Counted from the stretch's first letter, positions 35,057-61,107 are shown. The stretch: DNA of 64,000 nucleotides from a virus (IMGVR_UViG_3300010430_000022:1-64000), one strand, 5' to 3'. Program-made: numbers and translations. The notes: a model not told the origin generated them from the sequence alone.

Positions 35057-36745
35057 GTGTATCAAGCACATACGCTACTGATCCTCGAAGACCTACTTGG
35101 GTCTCGGACCTTTCGTCGACTCATCGAGGGCAAAGACCCTGCGCCTGATCCCGAGCGCCAGTCGCGCCCGGTCATTCCTCCACATCTCCGCACGAGCCAT
35201 GAGGAGGACACGCACCCAGCGATGAAGCTGCCGGGCCACAAGTTCCCTCAAGCAGTGCATGACGTCGCGCACTCCATCAAGAAGGCTGGTGGACGCGCGA
35301 TGATGGTCGGCGGCTACGTCCGCGATACGCTGGAGAAGCATTTCCATGGAGGGGACGAGCCCTCCAAGGACTACGACATGGAAGTCCATGGGATGCACCC
35401 AGATCACCTGGATAAGCACTTGGACTCCATCGGACGAGTGGACAGAGTCGGCAAGGCTTTCGGGGTGATGAAGCTCACACACAAGAAGCACGACTTTGAC
35501 ATCTCGATCCCCCGCCGAGACAACAAGGTCGGTAAGGGGCACAAGGGCTTCATGCCCGAGCCTGATCCGCACATGACCATTGGCGAGGCTGGTCATCGTC
35601 GGGACTTCACCATGAACTCGGTGGCGATGGACCCACACACTGGGCATGTCTACGACCCGCACCACGGCATCAAGGACATCAAGAGTCGGACGCTACGGGC
35701 TACAGACCCCAAAGCGTTTGCTGAGGATCCTCTGCGTATTCTGCGTGGCGCTCAGTTTGCCGCCCGCAAGAAGATGACGGTTCACCCACACACCATGAAG
35801 CTGATGCAGAACGCCGGGCACGAGCTAAAGGATCTGCCTCGTGAGCGTGTTGGTGTCGAGTGGAAGAAGCTTCTCATGAAGGGCAAGCACCCTGAGCACG
35901 GCCTAAAGGTCTTGCACGACTCGGGTGCGCTGAAGCATCTTCACCCTGAGCTTCATGCACTGACAGACCACCAACACGATCCGCACGATCACACGAAGGG
36001 CACTTCGTTTGAGCACACAGGTCGGGCACTGAGCCATGTTGTGCATGCGACTAAGGGGCTGCCCGATGACTCTCGCGAATCGATCCACCACGCCACGCTG
36101 ATGCATAACGTAGGGCGACCGGCAGGTACGGATGACCACGCTTCGGCTGGCTCAGCTATCTCTCGTTCTACTGGCAAGAGCCAGTTTGATCTGGAGAAGA
36201 ACGTCGCCACCAAGACTCATAAGCTCGTAGGCGAGCACGGTGCTCCTCACGAGATTCACGAGGCACACAAGCGCGGCGAGAACACAGACGCGCACATTCG
36301 CCATCTCGCTCACCGCCTAGGACCGTCGAAGCCAACGGCCCACGACGGCTCGTCTATTGGTGATCTTCTACACGTCGCTCACGCGTCACATGTGGCAGAT
36401 GGTAGTGGTGACCCTCACCACGCTGGTGACTTCTTGCGCAAGCGTGCCAAGGCACTTGGGGTTCACGACGGGCCTCAAGAGCGGCTTGTTACCGGCAAGC
36501 ACCTGAAGGCAGATGGTGTCAAAGGCGGACGTCGTATGGGAAGAGCCTTGGACCACGCCCACCAGAGGCAGTTGGATGGTGATGTCACTACTCACGAGGA
36601 GGCGAAGAAGGCTGCACTCGATCACCTCGCACACCTCGAACGTGAAGAGGGGCCTGAACAAGGGAAGAAGCAGAAGGTCAATCGTCGTAAGAAGCCTCCA
36701 TTGGCGGAGAACTACTCGCTCTACGCACGCGTCTTTAGTGCTTAG
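35057..36745 (+). CDS. cca: tRNA nucleotidyltransferase (class II CCA-adding enzyme) with degenerate HD domain, His-rich
   Basis: VGGYVRD, KDYDME (DxD), VGKAFGV, RRDFTMN, EDPLRILRGAQFAAR, ERV..EW.K; HD motif reads LMHNVGRP. Confidence 0.92.
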   Translation: MYQAHTLLILEDLLGSRTFRRLIEGKDPAPDPERQSRPVIPPHLRTSHEEDTHPAMKLPGHKFPQAVHDVAHSIKKAGGRAMMVGGYVRDTLEKHFHGGDEPSKDYDMEVHGMHPDHLDKHLDSIGRVDRVGKAFGVMKLTHKKHDFDISIPRRDNKVGKGHKGFMPEPDPHMTIGEAGHRRDFTMNSVAMDPHTGHVYDPHHGIKDIKSRTLRATDPKAFAEDPLRILRGAQFAARKKMTVHPHTMKLMQNAGHELKDLPRERVGVEWKKLLMKGKHPEHGLKVLHDSGALKHLHPELHALTDHQHDPHDHTKGTSFEHTGRALSHVVHATKGLPDDSRESIHHATLMHNVGRPAGTDDHASAGSAISRSTGKSQFDLEKNVATKTHKLVGEHGAPHEIHEAHKRGENTDAHIRHLAHRLGPSKPTAHDGSSIGDLLHVAHASHVADGSGDPHHAGDFLRKRAKALGVHDGPQERLVTGKHLKADGVKGGRRMGRALDHAHQRQLDGDVTTHEEAKKAALDHLAHLEREEGPEQGKKQKVNRRKKPPLAENYSLYARVFSA

Positions 36746-36920
36746 ACGGAGGCGCTCTGCACTTGATGTACGCCTCGGCAACCTCGTGGTAAGTTGTAGG
36801 GTAACCACGGGGAGATCGCGCTATGATGCGCCCGTAAGCCTAGCCTTGTTGATTCTGGTCCCACCGAAGGGAGGTGCGGAGGAAACGGCGGCTTGCGGAG
36901 GTCGTCGTTTCTTTCGTTCT
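36746..36920 (+). ncRNA. Candidate structured RNA/terminator region after cca
   Basis: Consecutive hairpins GAGGCG..CGCCTC, CCTCGTGGT..ACCACGGGG, and GAAACGGCGGCTT-GCGG-AGGTCGTCGTTTC (three G-U pairs) followed by a T-rich tail. Confidence 0.35.
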
Positions 36921-36934
36921 CGTAAGGTCCCCTC

Positions 36935-37606
36935 ATGAGCCATATCCCTAGCCTGCACGACCGGATCTTTGAGGGATTCTCCGACGACGTCAAGCACGCA
37001 CTGGCCGTCGGAATGCAGACACCCGAACGATTCGGTGGTCCACCCGAGAAGCCCAAGGAGCGTAAGAAGCCCAAGCCGACTCTGAAGAAGCCGACTCTGA
37101 AGAAGCGGCTCAAGAGGTTTGCTACGGACGCCGGCCGAGTCATGTTCCCTCGCAGCGAGGACGTGACCCTCTTCGACCAAGTTTTCACGGAGTCCGACAA
37201 GAAAAAGCTAGGTTTCGTAGGAAGCGTCAAGAAGATCGCCAAGGACGCCCACGAGTATGCGGATGTTTCAGATCCCACACACCCTTGGAATAAGATCCTC
37301 GTCACAGCGAAGAAGTGGTCTGACCAGGGCGGCGCGCTCGCCGGGAAAGATCAGGCGAAACCTCAAGCCAAACTTGAGAAAAAGGCTGGGTGGGGGTCTG
37401 AAGCCCTGAAACGTAAGAGTTCTTCGAAGGACAAGAAAAGCTCTAAATCAAAACACCCCATGAAGGTGCTCAGGAAGAGCATGCGGGATGCTCAACGCGA
37501 CCGCGACCGCGTCAGCCGTGGGGCTCAGGCGCCTCAGGGTGTTGGTCGCTCGAACCTAGGGGCCCCCGCAAAGACCACCTCGAAGCAACCTTCTGCCAAG
37601 AGGTAG
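36935..37606 (+). CDS. Lys-rich putative internal head protein (two modules)
   Basis: SLHDRIFE N-terminal motif and internal TLFDQVFTE. Confidence 0.6.
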   Translation: MSHIPSLHDRIFEGFSDDVKHALAVGMQTPERFGGPPEKPKERKKPKPTLKKPTLKKRLKRFATDAGRVMFPRSEDVTLFDQVFTESDKKKLGFVGSVKKIAKDAHEYADVSDPTHPWNKILVTAKKWSDQGGALAGKDQAKPQAKLEKKAGWGSEALKRKSSSKDKKSSKSKHPMKVLRKSMRDAQRDRDRVSRGAQAPQGVGRSNLGAPAKTTSKQPSAKR

Positions 37607-37732
37607 CGGATCTTATTCCGATACCCCATAATCCACTTACTTTGGTGGCACTACTACTGATCCAATTCGGGTTCGTAACCTCTTTCCTCGCATGTAGAAT
37701 GAGGTAACCATCCGACTCGGCGGAGAGACCTC

Positions 37733-38101: not shown

Positions 38102-38103
38102 CC

Positions 38104-39149: not shown

Positions 39150-39164
39150 GTCTAGGGGAACGGC

Positions 39165-39998
39165 GTGACAATGGCGACTGAGTTTCAAACGTGGAAGAAG
39201 GCTGTAGAGATCCCTACGGATCGTCTCGTCTTCACTGACTGGAACTGTAACGAGATGAGCCAGGAGAAGCTGGCTCATCTCCAAGCAGAGATCGAGAACG
39301 ATGAGGATCCAGAGGATCCTCATTTCGACGAGCCACTTCAGGTGATTCCGATTGCGGAGTCCGAAGGAAAGTTCCTCGTCGTAGGTGGTGAGCACCGCAC
39401 CAAGATCGCTCGCTCGCTAGAGATGCCAGCAGTCCCATGCGTGATCCGCAACGATCTGTCGAAGATGTCCAGGAAGGATCTGATCCTCTGGTCGGTTCGT
39501 CGCAACAACCTTCGTGGTCGAATCAACGCAACCAAGTATGCCGAGATGGAAGCCGAACTGGTTAACCACCACGGCATGACCTCTGAGGCAGCGCGGCGGT
39601 CCATGCTGATCGACGGTGACCTGGCCAAGGCGCTTCGGGCGACTCTGGCAGTCCGGGCGAACGAGAACAACGAGTCAGACGATGGGCACGACGGTAAGCG
39701 CCAGTTCGGCGACGACGTGGCAGACGCTCGTGAGGATCGACGCTCCAAGGAGGAGCTTCTCTCGGCGCTCAAGATGGCCGAGCAGGACGTGCTCCTCGAC
39801 TCTGCCGATACCGTCAAGCATGGCTACCTGTTCTTCGCTCAGGGCAAGAACGGTCAGATGCATCTGGTCGTCGACGAATCCCTGGAGCTACACGCACTCA
39901 TCAAGCAGATGGTTTCCACCTGCAAAGGCAATGACGCGAAGGTCGACGACTTCTTGACCAACGCGATTAGCGCTCAACTGACCTCGGAGACAAAGTGA
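39165..39998 (+). CDS. ParB/Srx N-terminal domain protein
   Basis: WNCNEM, PLQV, VVGGEHR, VPCVI motifs. Confidence 0.8.
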   Translation: MTMATEFQTWKKAVEIPTDRLVFTDWNCNEMSQEKLAHLQAEIENDEDPEDPHFDEPLQVIPIAESEGKFLVVGGEHRTKIARSLEMPAVPCVIRNDLSKMSRKDLILWSVRRNNLRGRINATKYAEMEAELVNHHGMTSEAARRSMLIDGDLAKALRATLAVRANENNESDDGHDGKRQFGDDVADAREDRRSKEELLSALKMAEQDVLLDSADTVKHGYLFFAQGKNGQMHLVVDESLELHALIKQMVSTCKGNDAKVDDFLTNAISAQLTSETK

Positions 39999-42900
39999 TG
40001 CAGGCACAGATGAACAGAACCCGTGCTACTCACAGCCGCCCCTCGATGAACATGTGGGAGTGGTTCGACATGTGGGCCCTCTATGAGGAGGTCACGCGTC
40101 GCTTCGGTTCGAGGAACCTGTTCGAGGATGAGGACGAGGAGGATTACTCGGACGAGGAGAAAGCGAAGCATCACGACTTCTACGTGAAGCACTTCAATGA
40201 GGTGCTCCACAACCACAACAGGATGTCTGCCAAGGACAGCAAGGATCGCTTGGCGCAGGTTGGTCAGTGGGCGTCGGAGCCATCGTCGAAGGTCGACATC
40301 AGGGCCGGACTGCGTCCACGACAAGGACGAACCGAGCGGGGCAGGGTCGTCCCTGTGGGCAAGGACCCAGTAACCAAGAAGAAGCAATTCGTGAGCAGCG
40401 AAGCACCTGGCTTCGGCGAGAAGGCTCGCGACTTTCGTAAGCGTCGGAGCGAGTGGCACAAGGGTCTTCGCGCTGATGGTCACGATCTGAAGTCTGCTCA
40501 CTCGGCCGCCCAGATCGTGACCGCAGTGAGCGGTAGTAAGCACGGTCACATTCTGCTCAGGGCCGCGAAGTCTCTCGCAGGCGACCCGCACAAGTCACCT
40601 GAGCGTCACAGAGGCATTTCGAGCACGACGGCTAAGAGCGTGCCTGGTGGTGGCAAGACCTCGCCTGATGAAGATAAGCACTTCATCGGTGCCACGCTGA
40701 TGACGCGCCACGGAGAAGCGCAGTCGGCGCACACCAACGAAGAGACCAAGCGGCTCCACGCTCGGCTCAAGGCACGTCGCGATCACGCTGCTTCGAAGGT
40801 CGAACCACTGGAGCCACGCGGAGAGGAAGAAAGCGAAGAAGCCTGGGGGAAGCGTGCTAGCGCCCACGACTCCAAGGTCAATAAGGCTGAAAGTGATATC
40901 GAATCAAACGATAAGCACGGCTATGCCTCTATCTCGACCGATACGAATCACACAGAAGACCAGGTGAAGGCGCACCGCCAGCGCATCTACGGTAAGCGCG
41001 CTGGAGCACACCTCTCGCCGATTCGCGACCTGGCTAGACAGGCTATGGCTCACATCGAGCCTAAGAAGGACAAGGACGGGAACATCACTGGCCCCGGCGG
41101 CAAGCTGAGTCATGAGTGGGTTGCACGAGCAGCGAAGCAACTTGCGATTCAGCGTCGTAGCTCTCACGAGACAAGCAAGAAGGCGGACTCTTTCAGGAAG
41201 GCCGTCGACACCGGTCATCGTTTGGGCGGAGATGACGAAGACCAGGCGAAGGGGATGGCAGGGATCTCTCAGTCCTCCGGCAAGCTTGCCACTCGCGTGA
41301 AGACAGGTGAAACGGTCAATCCCAAGTGGCACCACCCTGCCTCAAAACGAGCCAAGGATACTGGCATCACCATGCGGGGGCGCGATGGTAGCCCGAGTGC
41401 CGAAGCGCACGAAGCAGCTAACAAGGCTCTAGGAGTAACAAGAAAGAGAGCAAGCATCGATATTGGAACGGCGATCAAGACGCTTACCGACAAGGGCCAC
41501 GACCCCAAGTCGATTGCCCGGTTGCTCCAACACCCACACGGACAAGTGATGCGGAGGCTGGCCGGCTTCTCACCTACTGGTGCCGAGAGAGGCGGCGGCG
41601 CGTCAGGCAAACGTGCTGGTGCGCGAGAGAAGCGCGATCAACAACCCGTCAAGTCTGCGATGCGCGCAGAGCGCGAGGCCAAGATCGCCAAGGGCAAGTC
41701 TCCTACTGAGGCCGTCAAGGCCGACCTTCACCGTCTCTATCCGAAGCGAGACGAGGTTGGAGAGGGGCAAGACGACGAGAATCCGACAGGATCCTTCGCA
41801 GGCCGCATCCACAAGATGTATCACGGCGAAAAGGACGCAAAGGGAAACTGGATCTCCCAGCCGATGCCTCACAAGAAGGATGTGCAGGCCGATGAGGAGC
41901 AGCCAGACAAGCTAGGCGTACGCATTACACCTGGCACGGCACGCGCTGGCTTCACCGCTGGCAGAAACATTTCAGGTGCGAGTCCTCTCGAACACCCTGG
42001 CAAGTTCGACGAAGAGGCCGCTCACAAGCAGCACGACGGAGACGAGAAGAAGATCGAGCACGCTCGTCGATCTCACGAGACGCGCCTGGACCGTTTCCAC
42101 GACAGGATGGCAGACAACCACGACGGTGTTCACAAGGCCATGGATAAGATCCTCGCGAACGTGAAGGATCGAAACCACCACCTGACTGTTCAGCATCGTG
42201 AACATCACGACGCACTCAAGCTCGCCAAAAACACAAACAACGAAAGGGATGTAGAGGAGCTAACGGCTCATGGCAAGAAGATGAACATCATGGATGACAT
42301 CATCGATCACCACATGAACCACGCTCAGCACGATCCTGACGTGAAGAAGGCTTTGGGCGGCTCTCTCGCTCGTGTTCGCTCAGGACTCACCAACATCCAG
42401 GCTCGTCTGCGAAAGCATGGTGAGCACTCTATGGCGGCTCGAATCCTTCGTGGGGGCGCATCGCAGAAGGCTCGTGGTGGTGAAGAGCGCGGTAAAGGTC
42501 GCCCAGGTGACCCACTTTCGCGTCAGCGCGTTCGCGTTCCCGGCAGCGAGTCTGGTGCCGGTGGTGACATCGAGTCTCCAACAAAGCACAAGCCTGAGCA
42601 GTACATCGAGCCGACTACACAAACCAGAAAGGTCAAAATGCGCACAGCGCGCGGCGAGCCTGCTGGTACCGCAAACAGGCCCGTGCCTTCCGTGGCGACG
42701 CGAATCCTCGACAAGAGAGCGCAGGCCGCTCGCACCGCCAGCGCTATGGCGAAGCATGCTGCGTCGAAGGCTGCTAAGGAAGCCGCGAAGAGTCGTGAGG
42801 ACGCCCAGGAGCGGGCAACTATGCAGCGACCTGGTGGCGCAGGTGGCCCAATTGGACCAAAGCCGATTCCTGGCGCCGATAAAGAGGCGGAGAGGCGACG

Positions 42901-43414
42901 AGCGCGCGGCGACGCTGCTATGGCGGCCAAGAAGTCTCTCGCTGATAAGGTTGCTGCTGCACCGTCTTCGAAGACGGGCAAAGTGGGAACACCAGAGACA
43001 AGCTCAACGAGTCCTGCAACCCAGGCTCGATACCGCACCTACCCTTCAAAGTCGACCCCAACAAGTCGCGCTCAGATCACACCAACAACCAGTGATTCAC
43101 CTCGGATTCAGGCGCCCTCCAGGCCGGAACCCGGAACACCAGGTGGTCGTAGGCCCGAGGGCGAGAAGAAGCTGGTTCGCGCCCGCCCAACGGGCAGAAA
43201 GGGCGAGTTCTACGTACAGCCCGCCTCGTCGCCGCGCAGCGCGCCTGGGCGTCTCGCTCGAAGGAAGAAAAAGAAGGAGAAGACTGAGGGAGAGAAGAAG
43301 ATGGACGCGCTCTTCAGGAAGCCTGACAACAGGGAAGAGTCTCTCTTCGTTCGTACGCGCCTCGTTATCAACGAGTCATCGTCGCTCCTCAATCGGACCC
43401 CTCTCTCCGTTTAG
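39995..43414 (+). CDS. Large basic His/Lys/Arg-rich putative internal head/ejection protein
   Basis: 1139 aa, low hydrophobicity; acidic N-terminal segment after NLFE; C-terminus SLFVRTRLVINESSSLLNRTPLSV. Confidence 0.65.
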   Translation: MMQAQMNRTRATHSRPSMNMWEWFDMWALYEEVTRRFGSRNLFEDEDEEDYSDEEKAKHHDFYVKHFNEVLHNHNRMSAKDSKDRLAQVGQWASEPSSKVDIRAGLRPRQGRTERGRVVPVGKDPVTKKKQFVSSEAPGFGEKARDFRKRRSEWHKGLRADGHDLKSAHSAAQIVTAVSGSKHGHILLRAAKSLAGDPHKSPERHRGISSTTAKSVPGGGKTSPDEDKHFIGATLMTRHGEAQSAHTNEETKRLHARLKARRDHAASKVEPLEPRGEEESEEAWGKRASAHDSKVNKAESDIESNDKHGYASISTDTNHTEDQVKAHRQRIYGKRAGAHLSPIRDLARQAMAHIEPKKDKDGNITGPGGKLSHEWVARAAKQLAIQRRSSHETSKKADSFRKAVDTGHRLGGDDEDQAKGMAGISQSSGKLATRVKTGETVNPKWHHPASKRAKDTGITMRGRDGSPSAEAHEAANKALGVTRKRASIDIGTAIKTLTDKGHDPKSIARLLQHPHGQVMRRLAGFSPTGAERGGGASGKRAGAREKRDQQPVKSAMRAEREAKIAKGKSPTEAVKADLHRLYPKRDEVGEGQDDENPTGSFAGRIHKMYHGEKDAKGNWISQPMPHKKDVQADEEQPDKLGVRITPGTARAGFTAGRNISGASPLEHPGKFDEEAAHKQHDGDEKKIEHARRSHETRLDRFHDRMADNHDGVHKAMDKILANVKDRNHHLTVQHREHHDALKLAKNTNNERDVEELTAHGKKMNIMDDIIDHHMNHAQHDPDVKKALGGSLARVRSGLTNIQARLRKHGEHSMAARILRGGASQKARGGEERGKGRPGDPLSRQRVRVPGSESGAGGDIESPTKHKPEQYIEPTTQTRKVKMRTARGEPAGTANRPVPSVATRILDKRAQAARTASAMAKHAASKAAKEAAKSREDAQERATMQRPGGAGGPIGPKPIPGADKEAERRRARGDAAMAAKKSLADKVAAAPSSKTGKVGTPETSSTSPATQARYRTYPSKSTPTSRAQITPTTSDSPRIQAPSRPEPGTPGGRRPEGEKKLVRARPTGRKGEFYVQPASSPRSAPGRLARRKKKKEKTEGEKKMDALFRKPDNREESLFVRTRLVINESSSLLNRTPLSV

Positions 43415-43890: not shown

Positions 43891-46473
43891 ATGGCGCAGG
43901 GATTCGACGAAATTCTCGGCCTTTACCAGGCATCCGTGAGGAAGAGCCCTGCCTTGATGATGGAGACGATCAACGTCGATTCCAATCGTGGTGTCACATC
44001 GCGCGGCAACTCTCCATACGACAAGTATGCGTCCCCTGCGACTCGGGCTAAAGTCCTTGAGTCTCGGATGCAGGAGATCGAGGCTTTTGCGCGCAGCCGC
44101 AGTCTCTCTGCGTCAGCTATCTACGCTCTTGCGGAAGCCGCGATGCGCACTGGAAAGATCCCTGATCTCGGTCAGTTCGGTCTGGCTGGTGACGACGCGG
44201 TCGCAACCAAGCAGTTCCTCATCTCCAACGTCCTGAACATCGCTGGTCTGGAATGGACTGACTACAAGGGCGATCCGGTTGTCGAGGACGACGAAGAGCC
44301 TGAGCACCACGGCGCGCACGTCGTGGGCGATGAGCCGATGCGCATAGCCCAGGAGCAGGAGCCTCCTAAGAAGCGTCGGCGCCCGAAGACTACTGCTGGC
44401 GGCTACCAGATGGCCGACACAAGCAATGATCCTGCACGATTCATGGCTGAGGGCGCCGAGGGTATGCAGTCCAGTGGACAGAAGCTCGGCTCCCACTGGG
44501 CGAAGCACACTCCAAATCGCGTCGGATCAGCAGGCGCCAAGCGTGAGCGCCGGGCTGCCCACAAGGCAGGACGTCGTGCCGGGCAGGCTGACGCCGAGCA
44601 GGGCATGTCTGACTACGAGCAGGATAAGGAGGAGCGCGAGGAGCATCTTGAAGTCGATCCGACTCGCTTCATGGCTGAGGCTCCCGAGGACTACTGGCAG
44701 CGCTCTCGCACAGATCGCAAGAAGTCACAGGCCAACTACGACGAGCGCGTGAAGCGCCGCGCTTCTCAGTTGGGGGGCACCGGCGAAACCGGCTCTCCTG
44801 AGGTTCAGGAACAGAAGGCCAAGTCGAGGGCTGCTACCGCTGCGCGCGAAGCTGCGAAGGCTGCAAAGGCGAAGAAGTTCGGTATCGACCGGAAGCCCAA
44901 GATGGATAGCGTCGAATTCGATCCCATGACCTTCATGGGTGAGGGTGTGAAGCCAAAGCCGCAGGCCGGCTTCACCGAGAAGCAGGTCCGCAAGTTCACC
45001 GGCAGGAACCGCAAGGGTGCGCGCCGTCGCGAAGTTGGCGATGGTTACGGCCGATACGGTCGCCCGGTTGCTGGTGGCGGTCGCGGAAAGAAGGGCGTCC
45101 AAGGTGGCTGGGGACCAACCGACGAGCGGAAGGAGCCTCAAGACGTTGACGTTCAGGCTGACTCTGTTTTTGTCGATCCCTCCCGCTTCATGGCTGAAGG
45201 AGATGATCCCTACGACCGAATCGTGACCGCTGCTGGACATAGACGGCGGCCACACGAGCTTCAAGGCGAGGAGTTGAAGCGCGCCAAGGCAGAGAGTCAG
45301 CGTCGTCGTGAGTCTCCCGAACGTCGGGAGCAGGTGAAGCAGTGGAAGAAGTCTCGTAAGGATCGAGAGTCCCGCAAGGCGGCACGAGCAAAGGAAATGG
45401 GCGTCGAGCGCAAGCCGCAGATGAACAGTCTTGAGTTCGATCCCTTTCAGTTCATGGCTGAGGAGAAGGACACTGTCGGTGGACCTTCGAACGCGACCCT
45501 CTCGCCCAACCGCATGTCCGATGGTGGCGACACGCCCCACAAGCTCCAGGACTACGAGCGGAATGACCTTCTCTCGAAAGAGGTCATGGCGAAGCTGAGG
45601 AAGATTGCCGGAGACGGCGTCTACGGCTACTCCCGTGAGGATCTCTTCCGGCTCGCCCGCGAGCGCGGTCTGCTCGGGACCGAGGAGGCTGTCGAAGAGG
45701 CCGCCCATCTTGGTGCTGCCGGAAACGACCGTAGCGCCGGCAGCGCTGGTCTCGGCAACTACCCCGGCCCCACCACAGTTCCCTGGGAAGAGGACGAGAA
45801 GGAGAAGCGACGTCGGAAGCAGGAAGAAGACGCTCGTTCTGAGGTCGACAAAATCCTTGGGATTGAGCAAGGTGATCCGCGTGGCGACTCCTGGCCCAAG
45901 CTTGGTGGCGAGATGGCTCGCCTCATGGGTGTTCAGGAAAGCGTAGGCACTCCGGTCCATACCTACATGACCCAAGAGGAGGTTGCGGCCGAGGAGAAGG
46001 CTCTTCGCGAGCGTTCTGAGACCGACAAGATCCTTGGGATCATGCCTGGTGACCCCCGTGGCGACGCCTGGCCCAAGCTCGGCGGTGAGATGGCGCGTCT
46101 CATGAATCTGGAGGATCAAGGCGTTTTCCGGGCCCCGCGTGGCATCAACATGGACGAGCCGGCCGAAGATCAGATCGACGAGATGACCACTTCGGGCGGT
46201 CTAGGTGGCTTCATTGGTGGAGGCATGATGGGCGGCGGCATGATGGGCCGCACCTGCGCTATGCCCTCCTACGACGCGTCCTATCAGCTTCCGGAGGATC
46301 CGGACGAGCGCGTCAAGGCCCTCAACAAGCTGCTCAACAAGGGCAAGAAGAAGGGCAAGAAGGTTCAGGAGAGCGAGGAGATCTACGAGCCGGCACCGAA
46401 CTCAACTGAGGTCCCGACTGTTCGTGACGAAGCCTACGACGCTCATCCTTCGCGCTTCATGAAGCGCCGCTAG
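43891..46473 (+). CDS. Putative head polyprotein with periodic DPxxFM[AG]E motifs
   Basis: Five DPxxFM[AG]E motifs at 76-88 aa spacing; duplicated DKILGI..GDPRGD.WPKLGGEMARLM. Confidence 0.7.
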   Translation: MAQGFDEILGLYQASVRKSPALMMETINVDSNRGVTSRGNSPYDKYASPATRAKVLESRMQEIEAFARSRSLSASAIYALAEAAMRTGKIPDLGQFGLAGDDAVATKQFLISNVLNIAGLEWTDYKGDPVVEDDEEPEHHGAHVVGDEPMRIAQEQEPPKKRRRPKTTAGGYQMADTSNDPARFMAEGAEGMQSSGQKLGSHWAKHTPNRVGSAGAKRERRAAHKAGRRAGQADAEQGMSDYEQDKEEREEHLEVDPTRFMAEAPEDYWQRSRTDRKKSQANYDERVKRRASQLGGTGETGSPEVQEQKAKSRAATAAREAAKAAKAKKFGIDRKPKMDSVEFDPMTFMGEGVKPKPQAGFTEKQVRKFTGRNRKGARRREVGDGYGRYGRPVAGGGRGKKGVQGGWGPTDERKEPQDVDVQADSVFVDPSRFMAEGDDPYDRIVTAAGHRRRPHELQGEELKRAKAESQRRRESPERREQVKQWKKSRKDRESRKAARAKEMGVERKPQMNSLEFDPFQFMAEEKDTVGGPSNATLSPNRMSDGGDTPHKLQDYERNDLLSKEVMAKLRKIAGDGVYGYSREDLFRLARERGLLGTEEAVEEAAHLGAAGNDRSAGSAGLGNYPGPTTVPWEEDEKEKRRRKQEEDARSEVDKILGIEQGDPRGDSWPKLGGEMARLMGVQESVGTPVHTYMTQEEVAAEEKALRERSETDKILGIMPGDPRGDAWPKLGGEMARLMNLEDQGVFRAPRGINMDEPAEDQIDEMTTSGGLGGFIGGGMMGGGMMGRTCAMPSYDASYQLPEDPDERVKALNKLLNKGKKKGKKVQESEEIYEPAPNSTEVPTVRDEAYDAHPSRFMKRR

Positions 46474-46481: not shown

Positions 46482-46766
46482 GTGACGCTCGAACGCACCA
46501 ACCTCATCATGGAGACCGGCCCCTACGGGGGCGGGGGCGGTGGTCGTTCGGCTGGTGGATTCGCTACGCCTGTTTCGGGCCGGCGGTTCAATACCTGGCC
46601 GTTCGTCCCCAACGCTAAGCTTCTGATGCAGAAGGATCAGGAGGCTCAGCGCCGCCGCGAACGTCTTCGCGAATTGGCGTTAGGATGGTTCATGCACGGT
46701 GGCATGGGGACCGCCGGCTCGACGAACGGTGCGTCTAGTGGCTCAGCCCCAGGATCAATCTTCTAG
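46482..46766 (+). CDS. Small protein with ERTNLIME leader
   Basis: MTLERTNLIME variant of the shared leader; GAGG RBS. Confidence 0.6.
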   Translation: MTLERTNLIMETGPYGGGGGGRSAGGFATPVSGRRFNTWPFVPNAKLLMQKDQEAQRRRERLRELALGWFMHGGMGTAGSTNGASSGSAPGSIF

Positions 46767-48702: not shown

Positions 48703-49563
48703 ATGTTTGATCGCTTCACCGACCGCGCACGCAAGGTCATGGGCTTGGCTCGTACCGAGGCTCAGACGTTCAACCACCAGTACATCGGGACCGAGCACAT
48801 CCTGCTTGGTCTGATCGAAGAGGGCTCTGGGATCGCTGCCAACGTGCTTCGCAATCTCGATGTCGGGTCGCTGGTAGTGCGTCACGAAGTCGAGAAGATG
48901 CTCCAGGATGGCCCGACCATGGTCACTATGGGTCAGCTTCCGTTCACTCCGCGTGCAAAGCGACTGCTGGAGCTAGCTGGCGGTGCAGCGAACGAAATGC
49001 ACCACGGCTACATCGGCACTGAGCACCTTCTCCTAGGAGTCCTTCTCGAAGACGAAGGCACAGCCGCTAAGGCGCTGAAGAACCTCGGGCTGAACTCGGA
49101 CAACGTTCGCGCCGAGGTCATGGAGTTGCTCGGCCCCCTGGCAAACAGGCCCATTACGGAGGCGACGACTAACGATGTAGGGTTCGACGACTACCAAGCG
49201 TTCACGCGCACGACCGCCGTCTACCCCGGCTGCGACGAGCAGGGCTTCCACAGCGCCTCTTACTGCACCTTCGGCCTTACCGGCGAGGCCGGCGAGGTCG
49301 CCGAGAAGATGAAGAAGCGCTACCGCCTGGGCGGCCCCAATGCTTTCCTTCCCGGCTCGGTTGTGGACTACAAGGGCAACCCTGAGACCTACGAGGAGTT
49401 CGTGGAGGGCGTTAAGAAGGAACTCGGAGACGTGCTTTGGTACGTCGCGGGCCTCGCTGCTGAACTCGGAATCTCGCTCTCTGACGTTGCTGACGCCAAC
49501 ATCGTGAAGCTCTCGTCGCGCAAAGAACGCGGTGTGCTCAAGGGCAAGGGCGACGATAGGTAA
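48703..49563 (+). CDS. Fusion of ClpC-type N-terminal (Clp_N) domain and MazG-like nucleotide pyrophosphohydrolase
   Basis: MFDRFTDRARKV...YIGTEHILLGL...PFTPRAK...YIGTEHLLLG, then FDDYQ...GLTGEAGEVAEKMKK...KELGDVLWY...NIVKL..R. Confidence 0.9.
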   Translation: MFDRFTDRARKVMGLARTEAQTFNHQYIGTEHILLGLIEEGSGIAANVLRNLDVGSLVVRHEVEKMLQDGPTMVTMGQLPFTPRAKRLLELAGGAANEMHHGYIGTEHLLLGVLLEDEGTAAKALKNLGLNSDNVRAEVMELLGPLANRPITEATTNDVGFDDYQAFTRTTAVYPGCDEQGFHSASYCTFGLTGEAGEVAEKMKKRYRLGGPNAFLPGSVVDYKGNPETYEEFVEGVKKELGDVLWYVAGLAAELGISLSDVADANIVKLSSRKERGVLKGKGDDR

Positions 49564-56448: not shown

Positions 56449-56599
56449 TACAACCACCCCGGATTCCGAGTGCGGCAAGCCCAGGAATGTTTCCTGGGCT
56501 TGCTTCTTGTACGCCTTCGCACAACTTGCGAGCATGCTGGTAGACGAGTCGTAGCGTTCGTGTGCTTCATGCGGTAAAACAGGCGGATCGGGGTCGGGT

Positions 56600-58825: not shown

Positions 58826-59202
58826 TGGGATCGAATCGGGAAGACCTAGAAGCACGCCTCGACAGGGCCAAGACAAAGATCAAGCCGCAGCACTGCGCTG
58901 ACTGCGGTGGTCTGAACGCTCACGTCCCCATGGCTTGCGTTCTGAATATGAACACCCATGTTCTCGATACCTATCGCCTTCAGCTTCCGCCGGTCTGCGA
59001 CGACTGCGCGAAGGCACGCGGTATCTCGCGACGCGGAGTGCTTGCCCCCAAAGCTGAAATGCAGAACGCCTCTGAAGCGCTCAACGCACTGGTAGAGAAG
59101 ATCCCAGCCTGGTCAAAAACGTTGCTGGAGAAGCAACTAGTAGAACTCGTGTCGCAAGGCATGCCCGAGCAAGAAGCCAAAGACTTCTTGGGGGTCAAAT
59201 GA
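58825..59202 (+). CDS. Zn-finger hypothetical protein
   Basis: CADC...CDDC; translational coupling on both sides. Confidence 0.55.
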   Translation: MGSNREDLEARLDRAKTKIKPQHCADCGGLNAHVPMACVLNMNTHVLDTYRLQLPPVCDDCAKARGISRRGVLAPKAEMQNASEALNALVEKIPAWSKTLLEKQLVELVSQGMPEQEAKDFLGVK

Positions 59203-59885
59203 GCGATCCGAGGTTCATCGTTATCTCCGGCCTGATCGGTGTTGGTAAGAGCACGCTCTGTAAGAAGCTGGCAGAGCTTCTCGACTACGAACCGATCTTC
59301 GAGCCCGTCGAGGACAACCCCTACCTGGAGAAGTTCTACAAGGACCCCAACAAGTGGGCCTACCCGATGCAGGAGTTCCTCAAGCATCGGCGCTTCGCGG
59401 CCTATCAGTACGCCGCCTGGGGGATCAAGCACGGAGCCTTCAAGGGTGTGGTCCTCGACAGGTCTATCCACGAAGACACCGTCTTTGCAGAGATCAACGC
59501 CAAGATCGGTACCATCGACGCTCTCAACTGGAAGACCTATCTCCAGGGCTTCAACGACTTCCAGACGTTCCTGCCTGAGCCAGACGTTTACATCTATCTC
59601 GACGCCAGCCCAGAGACCTGTCACGCTCGGATCCTGGAGCGCGCTCGGCCGGCAGAGCAGCAGACCGGCTTCGAGGGTGATCCCGAAGACGCGCCGAAGG
59701 GAATCCCTCTCGACTACCTCCGGACCTTGCACCAGGGCTACCAGGACTGGCTGAAAGAGATCGCGCCTCGGATCCCCACAGTCAAGCTCGACTGGACGCG
59801 CTTCAAGACCACTGAGGACGCTTGGAAGTGGGTCAACGGTCAGATCGACGAGCGCAGTCGCTTCACACGGAGCTTGGTGGTCTAG
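59199..59885 (+). CDS. Deoxynucleoside kinase (dNK family)
   Basis: GLIGVGKST, EPVEDNPYLEKFY, DRSIHED..F, PDVYIYL, IPLDYL..L. Confidence 0.92.
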   Translation: MSDPRFIVISGLIGVGKSTLCKKLAELLDYEPIFEPVEDNPYLEKFYKDPNKWAYPMQEFLKHRRFAAYQYAAWGIKHGAFKGVVLDRSIHEDTVFAEINAKIGTIDALNWKTYLQGFNDFQTFLPEPDVYIYLDASPETCHARILERARPAEQQTGFEGDPEDAPKGIPLDYLRTLHQGYQDWLKEIAPRIPTVKLDWTRFKTTEDAWKWVNGQIDERSRFTRSLVV

Positions 59886-60442
59886 TAGCCACGCTTTGGC
59901 AACGCCCTAATCGTTCCGGTTAGGGGCAGGTGTCCGTGTTTGATCTTGCCTCCGACCTTACGAGGCACCGCAACACGATCTCCACGCTGCTGGGCCAGCA
60001 GATCGTTGCTCTGCACCGGCTTAGCTCCCGGCGCGTGCGAGATCGTGATGTGTGGGTGCTCCTTCTTCGTGAGGTGTTCGACACCTGAGACGCGAACAGC
60101 GTGGATCCCCATCTTCTCATCGTCAGCATGATGCGTCGCGTGGAGGTTCACTGTCTTCTTATGTTCCGGTGTGTTGTGGAACCGGTCGAGATCCTCTTGG
60201 GATGGGTCGTAGTTCAGCGTGACGTGATCGGCGGTTCGCGACTTGTACTTCGACGGGAAGTGCTGCGCCAACGCCTTCTTAGAGCCGTGGCTCAGTTCAA
60301 GCGCAAGATAGTGGCTGTCTGGGGAGTAGGGCGTTCCGCTAGCCGGCGCCGACTGTCGGTCAGACTTCGTTCGACGCTCACGGGGCGTAGGCGTTCCGGT
60401 CCCAAAGCCTTCGATCAAGAGAGGTGTTCGGCGAAGATTCAT
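59882..60442 (-). CDS. 2H phosphoesterase (2',3'-cyclic phosphodiesterase-like) with RTPLLIE leader
   Basis: Two HxT motifs: DHVTL and PHITIS, followed by KPVQSNDLL as in tRNA-ligase-type CPDase domains. Confidence 0.8.
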   Translation of the reverse strand: MNLRRTPLLIEGFGTGTPTPRERRTKSDRQSAPASGTPYSPDSHYLALELSHGSKKALAQHFPSKYKSRTADHVTLNYDPSQEDLDRFHNTPEHKKTVNLHATHHADDEKMGIHAVRVSGVEHLTKKEHPHITISHAPGAKPVQSNDLLAQQRGDRVAVPRKVGGKIKHGHLPLTGTIRALPKRGY

Positions 60443-61107
60443 GAGGTTTTTGGCATCGATCCGGCAGATCCCCAGTGCTCGTCGTCGACGTGATGCAGCG
60501 TGTGCTTCACTCCGAGGTCACTGAGAACCTTCCTGAAGTGTTCAATGTGCTCGGGACGGTCGTCCCACATGTGAACGTGTTTGAGATGTGGGTGCTCTGA
60601 ATGGAAACGCTTGAGCATGTGCCCCTTCCACTCAGCAGTCTTCATAGGCTTCTTCTTACCGTCCTGCGGAGGCTTCAGGAAGAGGTCGTGACCGTGCTTG
60701 TGTCCCCTCACCCCGAGCTTGTGCAGGGTATGAGACACAGCGTCTTGCATATCCGGCTTGGCGACGCGTCCGGTCATGACCACGACTCTGCTATGCGGAG
60801 ATGCTTTAGCGGCGTGATAGTTCTTGAGCGTGTGCTCGATTGGGTGCGTCTCGAACGGGTGACGAAGCGTCTTGTGGTCCCCCCACCAGTCACCAGGCTT
60901 GCTGCCTCGTGGATTCGTCCTGCTACGTGAGTGGTAGCGATAGAGATCCTTGTTCTGCGATGTTGGCTCAGGCGTCCTGGCCAGGGTGCCGTCCATGTCG
61001 AAGATGTGGAGGTGTTTCGCATTGCGAGACTCAATGAGGAGCGCAACCTCCTCTGCTCGGATGGCCTCAAGAATCGGGCTGATTGCTCGAATGGTGCGAC
61101 TTCTCAT
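60439..61107 (-). CDS. HAD phosphatase, Swiss-Army-Knife RNA-repair-like
   Basis: IFDMDGTL..TP (motif I), WW, MTGR (motif II), K, WDDRPEH (motif IV); translationally coupled to the 2H gene. Confidence 0.82.
   Translation of the reverse strand: MRSRTIRAISPILEAIRAEEVALLIESRNAKHLHIFDMDGTLARTPEPTSQNKDLYRYHSRSRTNPRGSKPGDWWGDHKTLRHPFETHPIEHTLKNYHAAKASPHSRVVVMTGRVAKPDMQDAVSHTLHKLGVRGHKHGHDLFLKPPQDGKKKPMKTAEWKGHMLKRFHSEHPHLKHVHMWDDRPEHIEHFRKVLSDLGVKHTLHHVDDEHWGSAGSMPKTS

What the first reader, a model, noticed from the sequence alone, without database searches (positions are those of the whole stretch)
35057..61107. Putative virion-packaged tRNA 3'-end repair kit: CCA-adding enzyme + 2H cyclic phosphodiesterase + HAD phosphatase, all with capsid-targeting-like leaders
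Seen: a class II CCA-adding enzyme (35057-36745) sits two genes after the major capsid gene. A coupled pair of HAD phosphatase (60439-61107) and 2H phosphoesterase (59882-60442) lies 23 kb away. All three begin with a short non-catalytic extension ending in hydrophobic-X-Glu (TLLILE|...RRLIE|, SPILE|...ALLIE|, RTPLLIE|) and all three are abnormally His-rich. Established: many anti-phage and toxin RNases leave 2',3'-cyclic phosphate ends; 2H CPDases open them, HAD phosphatases remove the phosphate, and CCA enzymes rebuild the acceptor end. T4 internal proteins carry an N-terminal capsid-targeting sequence removed by gp21 after Glu. Inference: the phage loads a three-step tRNA healing pathway into its head and injects it, so translation can be rescued before any phage gene is expressed. 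I know of no described pre-packaged tRNA-repair system.
Basis: partly seen in the sequence, partly recalled or inferred. Interest (0 to 1): 0.93.

Follow-up and report, generated by a model that had tools for sequence, protein, structure and literature searches.

The report
Capsid-tagged RNA repair enzymes in phage
An uncultured jumbo phage with a T4-type head puts the same short, Glu-ended leader peptide on four RNA-end repair enzymes and on several small basic proteins. This looks like the T4 signal for loading proteins into the capsid, so the phage may inject ready-made RNA repair enzymes, but no virion data exist yet.

Summary
The window is 64 kb of a 74.5-kb fragment (about 26% complete) of a jumbo phage. 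It has a T4-like portal, an S77 (gp21-type) prohead protease and a Gp23 capsid protein.

- **Enzyme identities.** The CCA-adding enzyme, a CNPase/Trl1-type 2H phosphodiesterase and a "Swiss-army-knife" HAD phosphatase are real.
- **Shared leaders.** All three carry 10-27-residue N-terminal leaders ending in hydrophobic-x-Glu. So do a P-loop polynucleotide-kinase-like enzyme just outside the window and at least seven small basic proteins.
- **Protein-level conservation.** Synonymous codons vary inside the leader. Metagenomic homologues of all four enzymes keep a leader, and more distant homologues lack it.
- **Second tag on the CCA enzyme.** It also has a conserved C-terminal tail after Leu-Ala-Glu, as T4 Alt does.
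- **Composition.** The tagged enzymes are 8.6-11.7% His with pI 9.4-10. Most other genes are 1-3% His.

The best reading (about 50%) is a T4-CTS-like cargo signal that loads an RNA end-healing kit into the head. Cleavage, encapsidation and ejection are untested. One close relative has an untagged CCA gene in the same slot. The RNA-repair gene set is already known from jumbo phages; packaging it would be new. Other first-stage notes on this same genome reported the shared peptide, the kinase and the degenerate HD motif.

The parts
24441..24905 (+). Tagged small basic protein (154 aa; MYNPSMTLRRRSLLIFE|..), upstream of the portal gene
   Evidence: pI 9.5, His 7.8%. Orthologous tagged ORFs are found in relatives L146 and L156.
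24895..25131 (+). Tagged small basic protein (MDLERTPLLLE|RRG..)
   Evidence: pI 12. L146 and L156 carry ..ERT[TP]LLLE|RRHR.
25134..25490 (+). Tagged small basic protein (MIRQTLLVE|TLV..)
   Evidence: Orthologues VRRSTLLLE|TL (L146) and MNRTPLLLE|TL (L156).
26183..28591 (+). T4 Gp20-type portal protein interrupted by an intein
   Evidence: Pfam Portal_T4 7.9e-48 and Intein_splicing 1.3e-10; phrog_213.
29576..30727 (+). Acidic scaffold-like protein (pI 4.2, 22.5% D+E) with N-terminal SLME / NMVE sites
   Evidence: it sits where T4 has its core and scaffold genes. The role is inferred.
30783..32654 (+). S77 (T4 gp21-type) prohead serine protease with a long coiled C-terminal extension
   Evidence: Pfam Peptidase_S77 6.4e-14; phrog_207 4e-32. 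The alignment to PDB 5jbl conserves the His98 / Ser154 / Asp180 positions.
32667..34112 (+). Gp23-type major capsid protein
   Evidence: Pfam Gp23 5.5e-55; 28% identity to T6 gp23 over 95% of its length.
34212..35045 (+). Basic internal-protein-like ORF (277 aa, pI 10.1) with an N-terminal TLFERIGLAE| and an internal SMFDRVFTE| motif
35057..36745 (+). Class II CCA-adding enzyme (562 aa) with a degenerate HD motif, 11.2% His and pI 9.4
   Evidence: Motifs GGYVRD, DYD, RRDFT and EDPLR are present; the HD signature reads LMHNVGRP.
35057..35128 (+). N-terminal leader of the CCA enzyme: VYQAHTLLILE| then ..RRLIE|
   Evidence: AAGGAG lies 7 nt upstream of the GTG. The leader is conserved in P0010, P0028 and P0032.
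36710..36742 (+). C-terminal tail of the CCA enzyme, ..PLAE|NYSLYARVFSA
   Evidence: Conserved in P0032 (LSE|SNSFYNRIFSS) and P0028. The same SL[FY]xR[IV]F motif occurs in the neighbouring genes.
36935..37606 (+). Basic internal-protein-like ORF (223 aa, pI 10.4) with an N-terminal SLHDRIFE| and an internal TLFDQVFTE|
   Evidence: Orthologues in L145-L148 keep the tag while the body diverges.
39995..43414 (+). 1139-aa basic protein (5.2% His) ending ..REE|SLFVRTRLVINE|SSSLLNRTPLSV
   Evidence: no Pfam family.
43891..46473 (+). 860-aa polyprotein-like ORF with five DPxxFM[AG]E sites about 85 aa apart
   Evidence: That these are protease sites is inferred.
46482..46766 (+). Tagged small basic protein (MTLERTNLIME|TGP..)
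59882..60442 (-). 2H phosphoesterase of the CNPase/Trl1 CPDase type (186 aa). The leader MNLRRTPLLIE| is followed by a disordered basic linker (residues 1-43)
60439..61107 (-). HAD_SAK_1 phosphatase (222 aa) with a double leader ..SPILE|..ALLIE|. Motifs DMDGT, MTGR, K and WDDR are intact
61108..61395 (-). Tagged 95-aa very basic protein (MLTRTPLLCE|; pI 12), first gene of the three-gene minus-strand operon
61458..62726 (+). Second, untagged 2H protein (LigT-like, HYTL / HATL) fused to DUF5661
62726..63043 (+). Tagged 105-aa basic protein with 9.5% His (VLERTPLLLE|RDK..)
63252..64000 (+). Start of an untagged Ro60/Rsr-like TROVE + vWA protein (it runs to 64994, beyond the window)

Best explanation
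The short N-terminal peptides are capsid-targeting propeptides of the T4 kind. The peptide forms are L-x-R-T-P-L-L-x-E, x-T-L-L-[IV]-L-E and S-L-[FY]-x-R-[IV]-F-x-E.

**Proposed mechanism.** A targeting part docks the protein onto the assembling prohead core. After shell assembly, the S77 prohead protease cuts behind the Glu. The mature protein then stays in the DNA-filled head and is ejected with the genome.

**Cargo.**
- Small, very basic internal proteins.
- An RNA end-healing set: a CNPase/Trl1-type 2H cyclic phosphodiesterase (2',3'-cyclic phosphate to a monoester), a HAD_SAK_1 phosphatase (removes the phosphate), a P-loop polynucleotide-kinase-like enzyme (5'-OH to 5'-phosphate) and a CCA-adding enzyme whose own HD phosphohydrolase motif has decayed.

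Delivered ready-made, these enzymes could restore host or phage tRNA ends cut by defence RNases before any phage protein is made.

**Shown here.** The enzyme families and their catalytic motifs; the existence, protein-level conservation and terminal position of the tags; the T4-type head machinery.

**Inferred.** Cleavage, encapsidation, ejection, the substrates and the timing.
For: 1. **T4-type head module.** Portal_T4, Peptidase_S77 with its triad aligned to 5jbl, and Gp23.

2. **What is known of the T4 system.** T4 gp21 and its giant-phage relatives cut C-terminal to Glu in a short motif. In T4, 10-19-residue N-terminal propeptides target unrelated basic proteins and the enzyme Alt into the core. 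Alt is trimmed at both ends, at ITE-6 and LTE-619 (PMC9026906, PMC5694885, PMC3012670).

3. **Eleven tagged ORFs.** Eleven ORFs of the 74-kb record start with a 9-27-residue tag ending hydrophobic-x-Glu. All are basic, pI 9.4-12. Five of them lie in the head module.

4. **Untagged controls.** The enzymes that should work in the cytoplasm have no clear tag: ribonucleotide reductase, dNK, dNMP kinase, Dam and Sir2. The large methylase at 56600 has only an ambiguous SPLKVE.

5. **Selection on the peptide.** Synonymous sites vary inside the tag. Homologues keep a tag while the linker diverges: HAD at 45-80% identity, 2H at 38-79% and CCA at 41-56%. More distant homologues start directly at the catalytic domain.

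6. **C-terminal tag on the CCA enzyme.** It has a conserved C-terminal tail behind L-A-E / L-S-E. The tail shares the SL[FY]xR[IV]F motif with the two flanking basic proteins and the 1139-aa protein. Relatives end in ..E|SLYVRSPLNLI or ..GGLYRTPLIS. The targeting motif therefore works on either side of a Glu, which separates targeting from cutting.

7. **Composition tracks the tag, with one exception.** Tagged HAD and 2H homologues are 6.4-12% His with pI mostly 9.5-11 (one at 8.0). Untagged ones are 3.6-4.5% His in three of four cases (the fourth is 7.7%). Two of the four have pI about 6; the other two are basic (pI 8.9 and 9.2). The untagged CCA in the same slot of a close relative is 3.9% His, pI 7.3. 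The exception is that tagged CCA homologues of the more distant LYRTPL clade are only about 3% His, pI about 6.

8. **Variable cargo locus.** The slot after the capsid gene varies between phages whose capsid proteins are 89-98% identical, while the N-terminal tag of its occupants is kept. This resembles the T-even internal-protein loci.

9. **Flexible leader.** The 2H leader and linker (residues 1-43) are predicted disordered, as expected for a removable propeptide.
Against: - There are no proteomic or biochemical data for this phage or any close relative. No cultured relative was found.
- The specificity of this protease is unknown. The capsid protein's own cleavage site could not be placed by alignment to T6 gp23.
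- A relative with a 92%-identical capsid protein carries an untagged CCA enzyme in the same slot. Packaging the CCA enzyme is therefore at best optional.
- In the more distant relatives L060 and L061 the tagged CCA gene is not next to head genes.
- The record's roughly two dozen tRNA genes almost all lack an encoded CCA. The CCA enzyme therefore has an obvious cytoplasmic job.
- No RNA ligase was found in the 74 kb. Only about 26% of the genome is available, so this says little.
- The public gene call starts the CCA ORF after the leader.
Confidence: 0.5

Rival explanations
1. The enzymes are ordinary cytoplasmic tRNA-maturation and RNA-repair enzymes, as in other jumbo phages. The shared peptide then serves some other purpose: a pro-sequence that keeps RNA-modifying enzymes inactive until a protease removes it, a degron or chaperone handle (the phage encodes a Clp_N-MazG protein), or a docking motif for a cytoplasmic complex.
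For: - The combination of 2H, SAK-type HAD, polynucleotide kinase, CCA enzyme, TROVE protein and many tRNAs is described for jumbo phages with no reference to packaging (PMC7824862).
- Almost none of the phage tRNA genes encodes CCA.
- An untagged CCA gene occupies the same slot in a close relative.
- The untagged LigT-like 2H and the Rsr-like protein sit in the same neighbourhood.
Against: - The same tags sit on small, very basic proteins and on large low-complexity basic proteins inside the head module.
- The tags end in the residue that S77/S80 proteases cut after.
- The tags correlate with a strongly basic, His-rich composition. That composition is hard to explain for a cytoplasmic tRNA enzyme.
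Confidence: 0.3
2. The tags do load the proteins into the prohead, but the cargo does not act on host tRNA. It may serve as structural or charge-neutralising inner-body material, or it may work on nucleic-acid ends of the phage itself. For example, kinase, phosphatase and nucleotidyltransferase activities could act on genome ends or nicks at ejection.
For: - The tagged proteins are basic and His-rich, like DNA-associated internal proteins.
- Polynucleotide kinase/phosphatases are known to act on DNA as well as RNA (established for T4 Pnkp).
- Many of the tagged proteins have no enzymatic domain at all.
Against: - All catalytic motifs of the four enzymes are kept under selection across homologues.
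- The 2H protein is closest to the RNA-specific CNPase/Trl1 branch.
- The CCA enzyme keeps the EDxxR template motif, which is specific for tRNA 3' ends.
Confidence: 0.1
3. The 2H/HAD pair is an anti-signalling device that destroys cyclic-oligonucleotide or 2'-5' second messengers of CBASS, type III CRISPR or similar systems. On this reading it is not an RNA end-healing pair.
For: Phage 2H enzymes such as Acb1 degrade cyclic nucleotides. Acb1 and a Burkholderia phage phosphodiesterase appear among the structural matches (Z 7.7). The jumbo-phage review raises this dual role (PMC7824862).
Against: - The CNPase and Trl1 CPDase matches are much stronger (Z 12.8 and 10.8, against 7.7).
- Pfam's only hit is the fungal tRNA ligase CPD domain.
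- The gene is translationally coupled to an RNA-repair-type HAD.
- A polynucleotide-kinase-like enzyme and a CCA enzyme carry the same tag.
Confidence: 0.07
4. The leaders are annotation artefacts. True starts would lie downstream, and the apparent peptides would be translated from conserved untranslated or regulatory sequence.
For: The public gene call for the CCA enzyme begins at Met56. Several tagged ORFs have only weak Shine-Dalgarno sequences.
Against: - Third codon positions vary while the amino acids are kept.
- A strong AAGGAG precedes the GTG of the CCA ORF.
- In HAD the tag lies only about 10 residues before the catalytic DMDGT, with no alternative start between them.
- The tags are conserved in homologues at 40-60% identity.
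Confidence: 0.03

Closest known systems
T4 internal proteins IPI/IPII/IPIII and Alt, with their capsid targeting sequence (CTS) and gp21 processing
   Same: - T4-type portal, S77 protease and Gp23 shell.
- Short N-terminal propeptides ending hydrophobic-x-Glu, shared by otherwise unrelated basic proteins.
- An enzyme among the cargo.
- Both N- and C-terminal propeptides on one enzyme, as in Alt.
- Variable cargo loci that keep a conserved tag.
   Different: - The tag sequence is different (LxRTPLLxE and SLYxRVFxE families).
- The same targeting motif is also used at C-termini and inside polyproteins.
- The cargo would be RNA end-healing enzymes, not restriction inhibitors or an ADP-ribosyltransferase.
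- Nothing has been shown experimentally here.
Ejection / inner-body proteins of giant phages phiKZ, 201phi2-1 and SPN3US, processed by S80 prohead proteases
   Same: Many head-internal proteins, including enzymes (virion RNA polymerase), are cut after Glu in a short motif and are ejected into the host.
   Different: Those phages have a different protease family (S80), an A/S/G-x-E motif, long propeptides and no RNA-repair cargo. This phage has an S77 protease and short tags.
Jumbo-phage RNA repair systems (Iyer, Anantharaman, Krishnan, Burroughs and Aravind 2021, PMC7824862)
   Same: The same parts list: 2H phosphoesterase, standalone 'Swiss-army-knife' HAD, polynucleotide kinase, CCA-adding enzyme, TROVE/Ro protein and many tRNAs.
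   Different: That work treats them as enzymes expressed after infection. No shared terminal tag or virion association is described. No RNA ligase has yet been seen in this fragment.
Healing domains of fungal/plant tRNA ligase Trl1 (kinase + CPDase) and T4 Pnkp
   Same: - CPDase of the CNPase/Trl1 2H branch (Z 10.8 to 6u05).
- A P-loop kinase with a weak match to the Pnkp kinase domain.
- A HAD phosphatase, as in T4 Pnkp.
   Different: The domains are separate proteins here rather than one polypeptide. No sealing ligase was found in the available 26% of the genome.
E. coli-type multifunctional CCA-adding enzyme with an HD phosphohydrolase domain
   Same: Class II head, neck and body. Relatives of this enzyme keep an intact HD domain (PF01966).
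   Different: Here the HD signature is HN and the distal Asp is Ser. The closest relatives have HK. The phosphoesterase activities are probably lost and may be supplied by the separate 2H and HAD enzymes; that is an inference.
Encapsulin cargo-loading peptides
   Same: This is an analogy only: a short terminal peptide, usable at either end, directs unrelated enzymes into an HK97-fold shell.
   Different: Encapsulin peptides are not removed by a maturation protease, and the shells carry no genome. No homology is implied.

Membership tests
Class II CCA-adding enzyme (tRNA nucleotidyltransferase) | Pol-beta head domain with GGxVRD and the DxD catalytic carboxylates | tested here: met
   PF01743 1.8e-15. 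GGYVRD and D105-Y-D107 are invariant in alignments A1 and A4.
Class II CCA-adding enzyme (tRNA nucleotidyltransferase) | Motif B (RRD) and the motif D amino-acid template EDxxR | tested here: met
   RRDFT and E223-D224-P-L-R227 are conserved.
Class II CCA-adding enzyme (tRNA nucleotidyltransferase) | Adds C-C-A rather than only A, only CC, or poly(A) | not testable with these tools
   NCBIfam ranks the CCA models above PcnB, but all hits are below the curated cut-offs.
Multifunctional CCA/repair enzyme (HD phosphohydrolase type) | Intact H...HD...D metal-binding signature | tested here: not met
   LMHNVGRP and AHASH here, against LMHDIAKP and AHADH in relatives. No PF01966 hit.
2H phosphoesterase superfamily, CNPase/Trl1 CPDase branch | Two H-x-T/S motifs | tested here: met
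   HVTL (H73, T75) and HITI (H131, T133) are invariant in 11 homologues.
2H phosphoesterase superfamily, CNPase/Trl1 CPDase branch | 2H fold, closest to CNPase / Trl1 CPDase | tested here: met
   Model pLDDT 82. CNPase Z 12.8, rmsd 2.6 A over 131 aa; Trl1 (6u05) Z 10.8; LigT 7.2; Acb1 7.7. The Pfam tRNA_lig_CPD hit at 2.2e-4 is just below its cut-off.
2H phosphoesterase superfamily, CNPase/Trl1 CPDase branch | Hydrolyses RNA 2',3'-cyclic phosphate ends | not testable with these tools
   This needs an enzyme assay.
HAD_SAK_1 ('Swiss-army-knife' RNA-repair HAD phosphatase) | Profile match above the curated cut-off | tested here: met
   PF10307, 51.6 bits against a cut-off of 25.6. All 13 homologues carry PF10307.
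HAD_SAK_1 ('Swiss-army-knife' RNA-repair HAD phosphatase) | HAD motifs I (DxDGT), II (T/S), III (K) and IV (DD) | tested here: met
   FDMDGTL, MTGR, KT..WK and WDDR are invariant or nearly so in A2.
Polynucleotide 5'-kinase (Pnkp-type P-loop kinase) | Walker A P-loop and similarity to the Pnk kinase domain | tested here: inconclusive
   AAA_33 1.3e-16, with GSGKST and VVDNTN present. The NCBIfam Pnkp and PNK-3'Pase hits are only about 8e-4. The substrate is unknown.
T4-type capsid-targeting / gp21-processing system | S77 prohead protease with a His-Ser-Asp triad, plus Gp20 portal and Gp23 shell | tested here: met
T4-type capsid-targeting / gp21-processing system | A short (about 10-19 aa) N-terminal propeptide ending hydrophobic-x-Glu, shared by unrelated basic proteins | tested here: met
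   Eleven ORFs; conserved in homologues. The criteria come from PMC9026906.
T4-type capsid-targeting / gp21-processing system | The propeptide is cut by the prohead protease, and the mature protein is found in the head and ejected | not testable with these tools
Acb1-type anti-CBASS 2H nuclease | Closest structural and sequence similarity to Acb1 | tested here: inconclusive
   Acb1 (7t26) matches at Z 7.7, well below CNPase at 12.8. There is no sequence hit.

The most novel reading that the evidence does not exclude
A clade of uncultured T4-headed jumbo phages uses a portable terminal peptide to load a variable cargo into the capsid. The peptide (SLYRTPLxLxE and its derivatives) can sit at the N-terminus, at the C-terminus, or between the units of a polyprotein. 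The cargo includes a complete RNA end-healing set: CPDase, phosphatase, 5'-kinase and CCA-adding enzyme. The enzymes have been remodelled into basic, His-rich proteins to live among packaged DNA. They are injected with the genome, so that tRNA cut by host defence nucleases is mended before the first phage protein has to be translated.
Probability: 0.4. Interest if true: 0.85.

Novelty: new variant of a known kind. Interest (0 to 1): 0.72.

Why it matters
**A possible answer to a bootstrap problem.** Defence systems that cut tRNA stop a phage from translating the very enzymes that would repair the damage. Repair enzymes injected ready-made would get round this. Among known virion-delivered counter-defences are T4 IPI*, T4 Alt, P1 Dar and virion RNA polymerases. 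The literature searches run here found no description of virion-delivered RNA repair.

**A testable tag.** The tag is a simple, sequence-defined handle. It predicts which proteins of these uncultured phages are in the virion, and it can be tested by mass spectrometry or by tag-GFP fusions. It might also serve as a cargo-loading tool, as the T4 CTS does.

**The composition shift.** The basic, His-rich composition of the tagged enzymes is a possible signature of adaptation to the capsid interior. It could be searched for in other phages.

Tried and rejected
**Searches that found nothing useful**
- Megablast of 24 kb against GenBank phages gave no match.
- A single-protein scan of IMG/VR for the CCA enzyme found no relative.
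- A profile scan of IMG/VR for CCA found only untagged or distant enzymes.
It returned mostly bacterial CCA genes and missed the 88,875-bp contig. That contig appears to carry tagged CCA, HAD and 2H together; this is inferred from identical longest-contig lengths.
- HAD and 2H were not found in five related IMG/VR fragments. These fragments are 5-26% complete, so the result is uninformative.
- An IMG/VR scan for HAD found only about 28%-identical hits.
- tblastn of 2H against cultured phages gave nothing. HAD hit only huge uncultured phages.
- The HAD of LR756511 starts MNLNFRQYVEG, which may or may not be an analogous leader.
- Literature searches for packaged or injected tRNA repair returned only the general jumbo-phage review.
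- The Atu_ph07 and XacN1 proteome papers do not say whether their CCA enzymes are in the virion.

**Ideas tested and rejected**
- That the motif is a DNA or RNA element: rejected because synonymous positions vary.
- That 'APLLEG' in the capsid propeptide is a tag: rejected because it is the conserved NKWxPLLEG of all gp23 propeptides.

**Inconclusive attempts**
- Aligning to T6 gp23 to find the capsid protein's cleavage site did not work, because the region around the T4 site is deleted here.
- Inspecting upstream regions by eye gave no shared late-promoter motif.

Full report
**What the window is.** The window is the first 64 kb of a 74,465-bp IMG/VR virus record that CheckV rates as 26% complete, so the phage genome is probably near 280 kb. 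No cultured phage resembles it at the DNA level.

It has a T4-style head module:
- a Gp20-type portal interrupted by an intein (26183-28591);
- two acidic core/scaffold-like genes;
- an S77 (T4 gp21-type) prohead protease (30783-32654; Pfam 6.4e-14). Its His98, Ser154 and Asp180 align with the catalytic positions of the solved T4 enzyme 5jbl;
- a Gp23 major capsid protein (32667-34112; 5.5e-55; 28% identical to T6 gp23).

**The three enzymes.**
- *CCA enzyme.* The ORF at 35057-36745 has the class II CCA-adding head and RNA-binding domains. It carries the GGxVRD, DxD, RRD and EDxxR motifs. Its HD signature is degenerate: LMHNVGRP and AHASH, against LMHDIAKP and AHADH in relatives.
- *HAD phosphatase.* The ORF at 60439-61107 (-) is a HAD_SAK_1 phosphatase. 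It scores above the Pfam cut-off and has all four HAD motifs.
- *2H phosphoesterase.* The ORF at 59882-60442 (-) overlaps the HAD gene by 4 nt. It has two invariant HxT motifs. Its AlphaFold model (pLDDT 82) superposes on the CNPase catalytic domain at Z 12.8 (rmsd 2.6 A, 131 residues). It superposes on the CPDase domain of fungal tRNA ligase at Z 10.8. Both are well above LigT (7.2) and the anti-CBASS nuclease Acb1 (7.7).

The 2H enzyme belongs to the branch that opens RNA 2',3'-cyclic phosphates.

**The leaders are real, are peptides, and are many.** A six-frame search for T[PL]?[LI][LIV].E gave 15 matches. Seven lie within a dozen residues of the start of a substantial ORF. The codons differ at third positions between copies (ACC CCG TTG CTG CTC GAA, ACA CCT CTC TTG ATC GAA, ACC CCC CTG CTC CTT GAA ...). 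Selection is therefore on the peptide.

With the variants included, eleven ORFs of the record carry such a start:
- three small basic proteins just upstream of the portal (24441, 24895, 25134);
- the CCA enzyme;
- a small protein after the polyprotein (46482);
- the operon of a 95-aa basic protein, HAD and 2H (61395-59882, minus strand);
- a 105-aa basic protein (62726);
- beyond the window, a 116-aa protein (68348) and a P-loop AAA_33 kinase with weak Pnkp-kinase similarity (73232-73963, minus strand).

A second, related motif, S-L-[FYH]-x-R-[IV]-F-x-E, occurs seven times and only in a small set of proteins. It sits at the N-terminus and once internally in each of the two basic proteins flanking the CCA gene. 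It forms the C-terminal tail of the CCA enzyme and lies near the C-terminus of the 1139-aa basic protein. It also opens the kinase's N-terminus, directly ahead of that protein's RSRTLPLVE leader.

Ribonucleotide reductase, two nucleotide kinases, Dam, Sir2, the Clp_N-MazG protein, the Rsr/Ro-like protein and the second (LigT-like) 2H protein have no tag. The large methylase at 56600 has only an ambiguous SPLKVE.

**Start of the CCA gene.** The public gene call begins at Met56 (P0005), which would exclude the leader. Two things support the GTG at 35057. It is preceded by AAGGAG at 7 nt. The leader is also conserved in homologues at 45-49% identity:
- MYRPITLTILEQLCGPKFWGRL (P0010);
- MYDAQTLLVLEHLLDARTF (P0028);
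- MFTPRTLLILE (P0032).

**Comparative evidence.**
- *HAD.* Eleven of the 12 full-length HAD homologues, at 41-81% identity, carry a tag such as MLQRTPLLIE, MRPPRSPLLIE or MAMMNRRPLLVE about ten residues before the catalytic DMDGT. One (P0136) starts directly at the domain.
- *2H.* Seven of ten homologues carry M..RRTPLLIE-type tags. Three of them are degenerate, and in one the tag lies after a long N-terminal extension. The three most distant homologues have none.
- *CCA.* A larger clade starts with ..SLYRTPLRLTE. It often ends with ..E|SLYVRSPLNLI or ..GGLYRTPLIS. A leaderless clade (P0027, P0029, P0030, P0033) starts exactly at the conserved RPExxLEP.
- *Kinase.* One homologue starts MNLFERLFE and repeats SLFDRLFE near its C-terminus.
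- *Neighbours.* In the metagenomic contigs L060 and L061, the genes next to the tagged CCA gene also begin with ..LYR[VS]PL.L.E.

The same targeting-like motif therefore appears before a Glu at N-termini and after a Glu at C-termini. That pattern is expected if one part of the peptide docks and the Glu marks the cut.

**Close relatives.** Twelve IMG/VR contigs have capsid proteins 76-98% identical to this one. The stretch between the capsid gene and a conserved 122-aa structural gene varies between them:

| Contig | Capsid identity | Genes in the slot |
|---|---|---|
| This window | - | tagged basic protein, tagged CCA, tagged basic protein |
| L145 | 98% | two extra genes, tagged CCA, tagged protein |
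| L146 | 93% | tagged protein, one other gene; no CCA |
| L147 | 92% | extra genes, an untagged CCA enzyme of the leaderless clade (43% identical, 3.9% His, pI 7.3), tagged protein |

The occupants change but their N-terminal tag persists: MSLFARLFLDE, MSLYGHVFEAE, MNTPSLFDRVFTE. T-even internal-protein loci behave the same way. This comparison also shows that packaging the CCA enzyme, if it happens, is optional.

**Composition.** The tagged enzymes are 8.6-11.7% His with pI 9.4-10. Most other genes are 1-3% His, and the untagged dNK next door is 2.2% His with pI 5.6. Across homologues of HAD and 2H, tag presence mostly goes with a basic, His-rich composition. Untagged P0145 is an exception at 7.7% His and pI 9.2. 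For CCA the His-richness is confined to the sub-clade nearest this phage (P0001, P0028, P0032). The LYRTPL-tagged CCA clade is about 3% His with pI about 6, so tag and composition are not tied together there. Its meaning is open, and adaptation to the DNA-filled capsid is only an inference.

**How this fits what is known.**
- In T4, 10-19-residue N-terminal propeptides (CTS) target unrelated basic internal proteins and the enzyme Alt to the prohead core.
- Residues 4 and 7 of the CTS direct targeting, and residues 8 and 10 direct cleavage.
- gp21 cuts after Glu.
- Alt loses both an N-terminal (ITE-6) and a C-terminal (LTE-619) piece.
- The CTS can carry foreign proteins into the head and on into the host (PMC9026906, PMC5694885, PMC3012670).

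The present tags match this description in length, position, ending, the type of proteins they mark and the machinery encoded beside them.

The RNA-repair parts list is already described for jumbo phages as cytoplasmic counter-defence: 2H, SAK-type HAD, polynucleotide kinase, CCA enzyme, TROVE protein and many tRNAs (PMC7824862). What would be new is its delivery in the virion. My literature searches found no report of that.

**Mechanism proposed, and its status.**
- *Shown:* the families, the motifs, the tags and their conservation.
- *Inferred, step 1:* the tags dock the proteins to the core and the S77 protease removes them after Glu.
- *Inferred, step 2:* the mature basic enzymes stay in the head and are ejected.
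- *Inferred, step 3:* the CPDase converts 2',3'-cyclic phosphate ends to a monoester. The HAD enzyme then removes the phosphate, the kinase phosphorylates 5'-OH ends for a ligase not yet found, and the CCA enzyme rebuilds acceptor ends. The CCA enzyme's own HD phosphoesterase has decayed.

I put about 50% on packaging of the enzyme set. I put more on the narrower claim that the tags are protease/core-directed propeptides of head-internal proteins.

**Main doubts.**
- There are no virion data.
- The protease specificity is unknown, and the capsid cleavage site could not be located.
- A close relative has an untagged CCA gene in the same slot.
- In distant relatives the tagged CCA gene is not near head genes.
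- The roughly two dozen phage tRNA genes almost all lack an encoded CCA, which already gives the CCA enzyme an ordinary job.
- No ligase was found in the available quarter of the genome.

Noticed in passing
window 26183-28591: The T4-type portal gene is interrupted by an intein (Intein_splicing 1.3e-10, residues 97-234; CFTGD...HNS). In the 98%-capsid relative L145 the portal ORF is 1937 aa long, which suggests further insertions.
   Followed up: partly
window 43891-46473: An 860-aa basic ORF is punctuated by five DPxxFM[AG]E motifs about 85 residues apart and ends in HPSRFMKRR. It looks like a polyprotein cut by the prohead protease into basic peptides. A relative's protein (L061 1240-2109) ends ..SFMAEE.
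   Followed up: partly
window 63252-64000, continuing to 64994 of the record (L141 1333-3075): An untagged Ro60/Rsr-like protein: TROVE segments plus a vWA domain with a DxSxS MIDAS motif (NCBIfam Rsr 3.4e-14). It lies next to a tmRNA gene and a tRNA array, so a Y-RNA-like partner may be nearby.
   Followed up: partly
L056 1528-9234 (record 65.5-73.2 kb): A tmRNA gene and about 23 tRNA genes, including several tRNA-Met and tRNA-Leu copies. Almost none has an encoded 3' CCA.
   Followed up: partly
window 48703-49563: A fusion of two Clp_N domains with a MazG pyrophosphohydrolase domain. This is an unusual architecture, with no tag.
   Followed up: no
window 61458-62726: A second 2H protein (LigT-like, HYTL / HATL motifs) fused to DUF5661. 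It is divergently transcribed from the tagged HAD/2H operon and is untagged.
   Followed up: partly
window 34113-34211: A strong GC-rich hairpin followed by a T-run directly after the capsid gene (GGCGGCGGCAGATGCCGCCGCC TTTTT). It is a likely terminator or attenuator before the tagged cargo genes.
   Followed up: no
window 56600-58825: A 741-aa DNA methylase starts MGASPLKVE|TYEL. The start faintly resembles the tag but has Lys at the P3 position, so it is unclear whether it is one.
   Followed up: no
L145 11588-14355; L147 11589-15174; L148 5098-8641: In close relatives, the slot after the capsid gene holds extra genes absent from this window. Their products look like HTH or homing-type proteins. 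The slot is a hotspot for insertions.
   Followed up: no
L058 2953-3615 (LR756511, 595-kb uncultured phage): The only GenBank phage records with a HAD_SAK_1 relative are huge uncultured phages. The best capsid match comes from the same record. Its HAD starts MNLNFRQYVEG, possibly an analogous Glu-ended leader.
   Followed up: no
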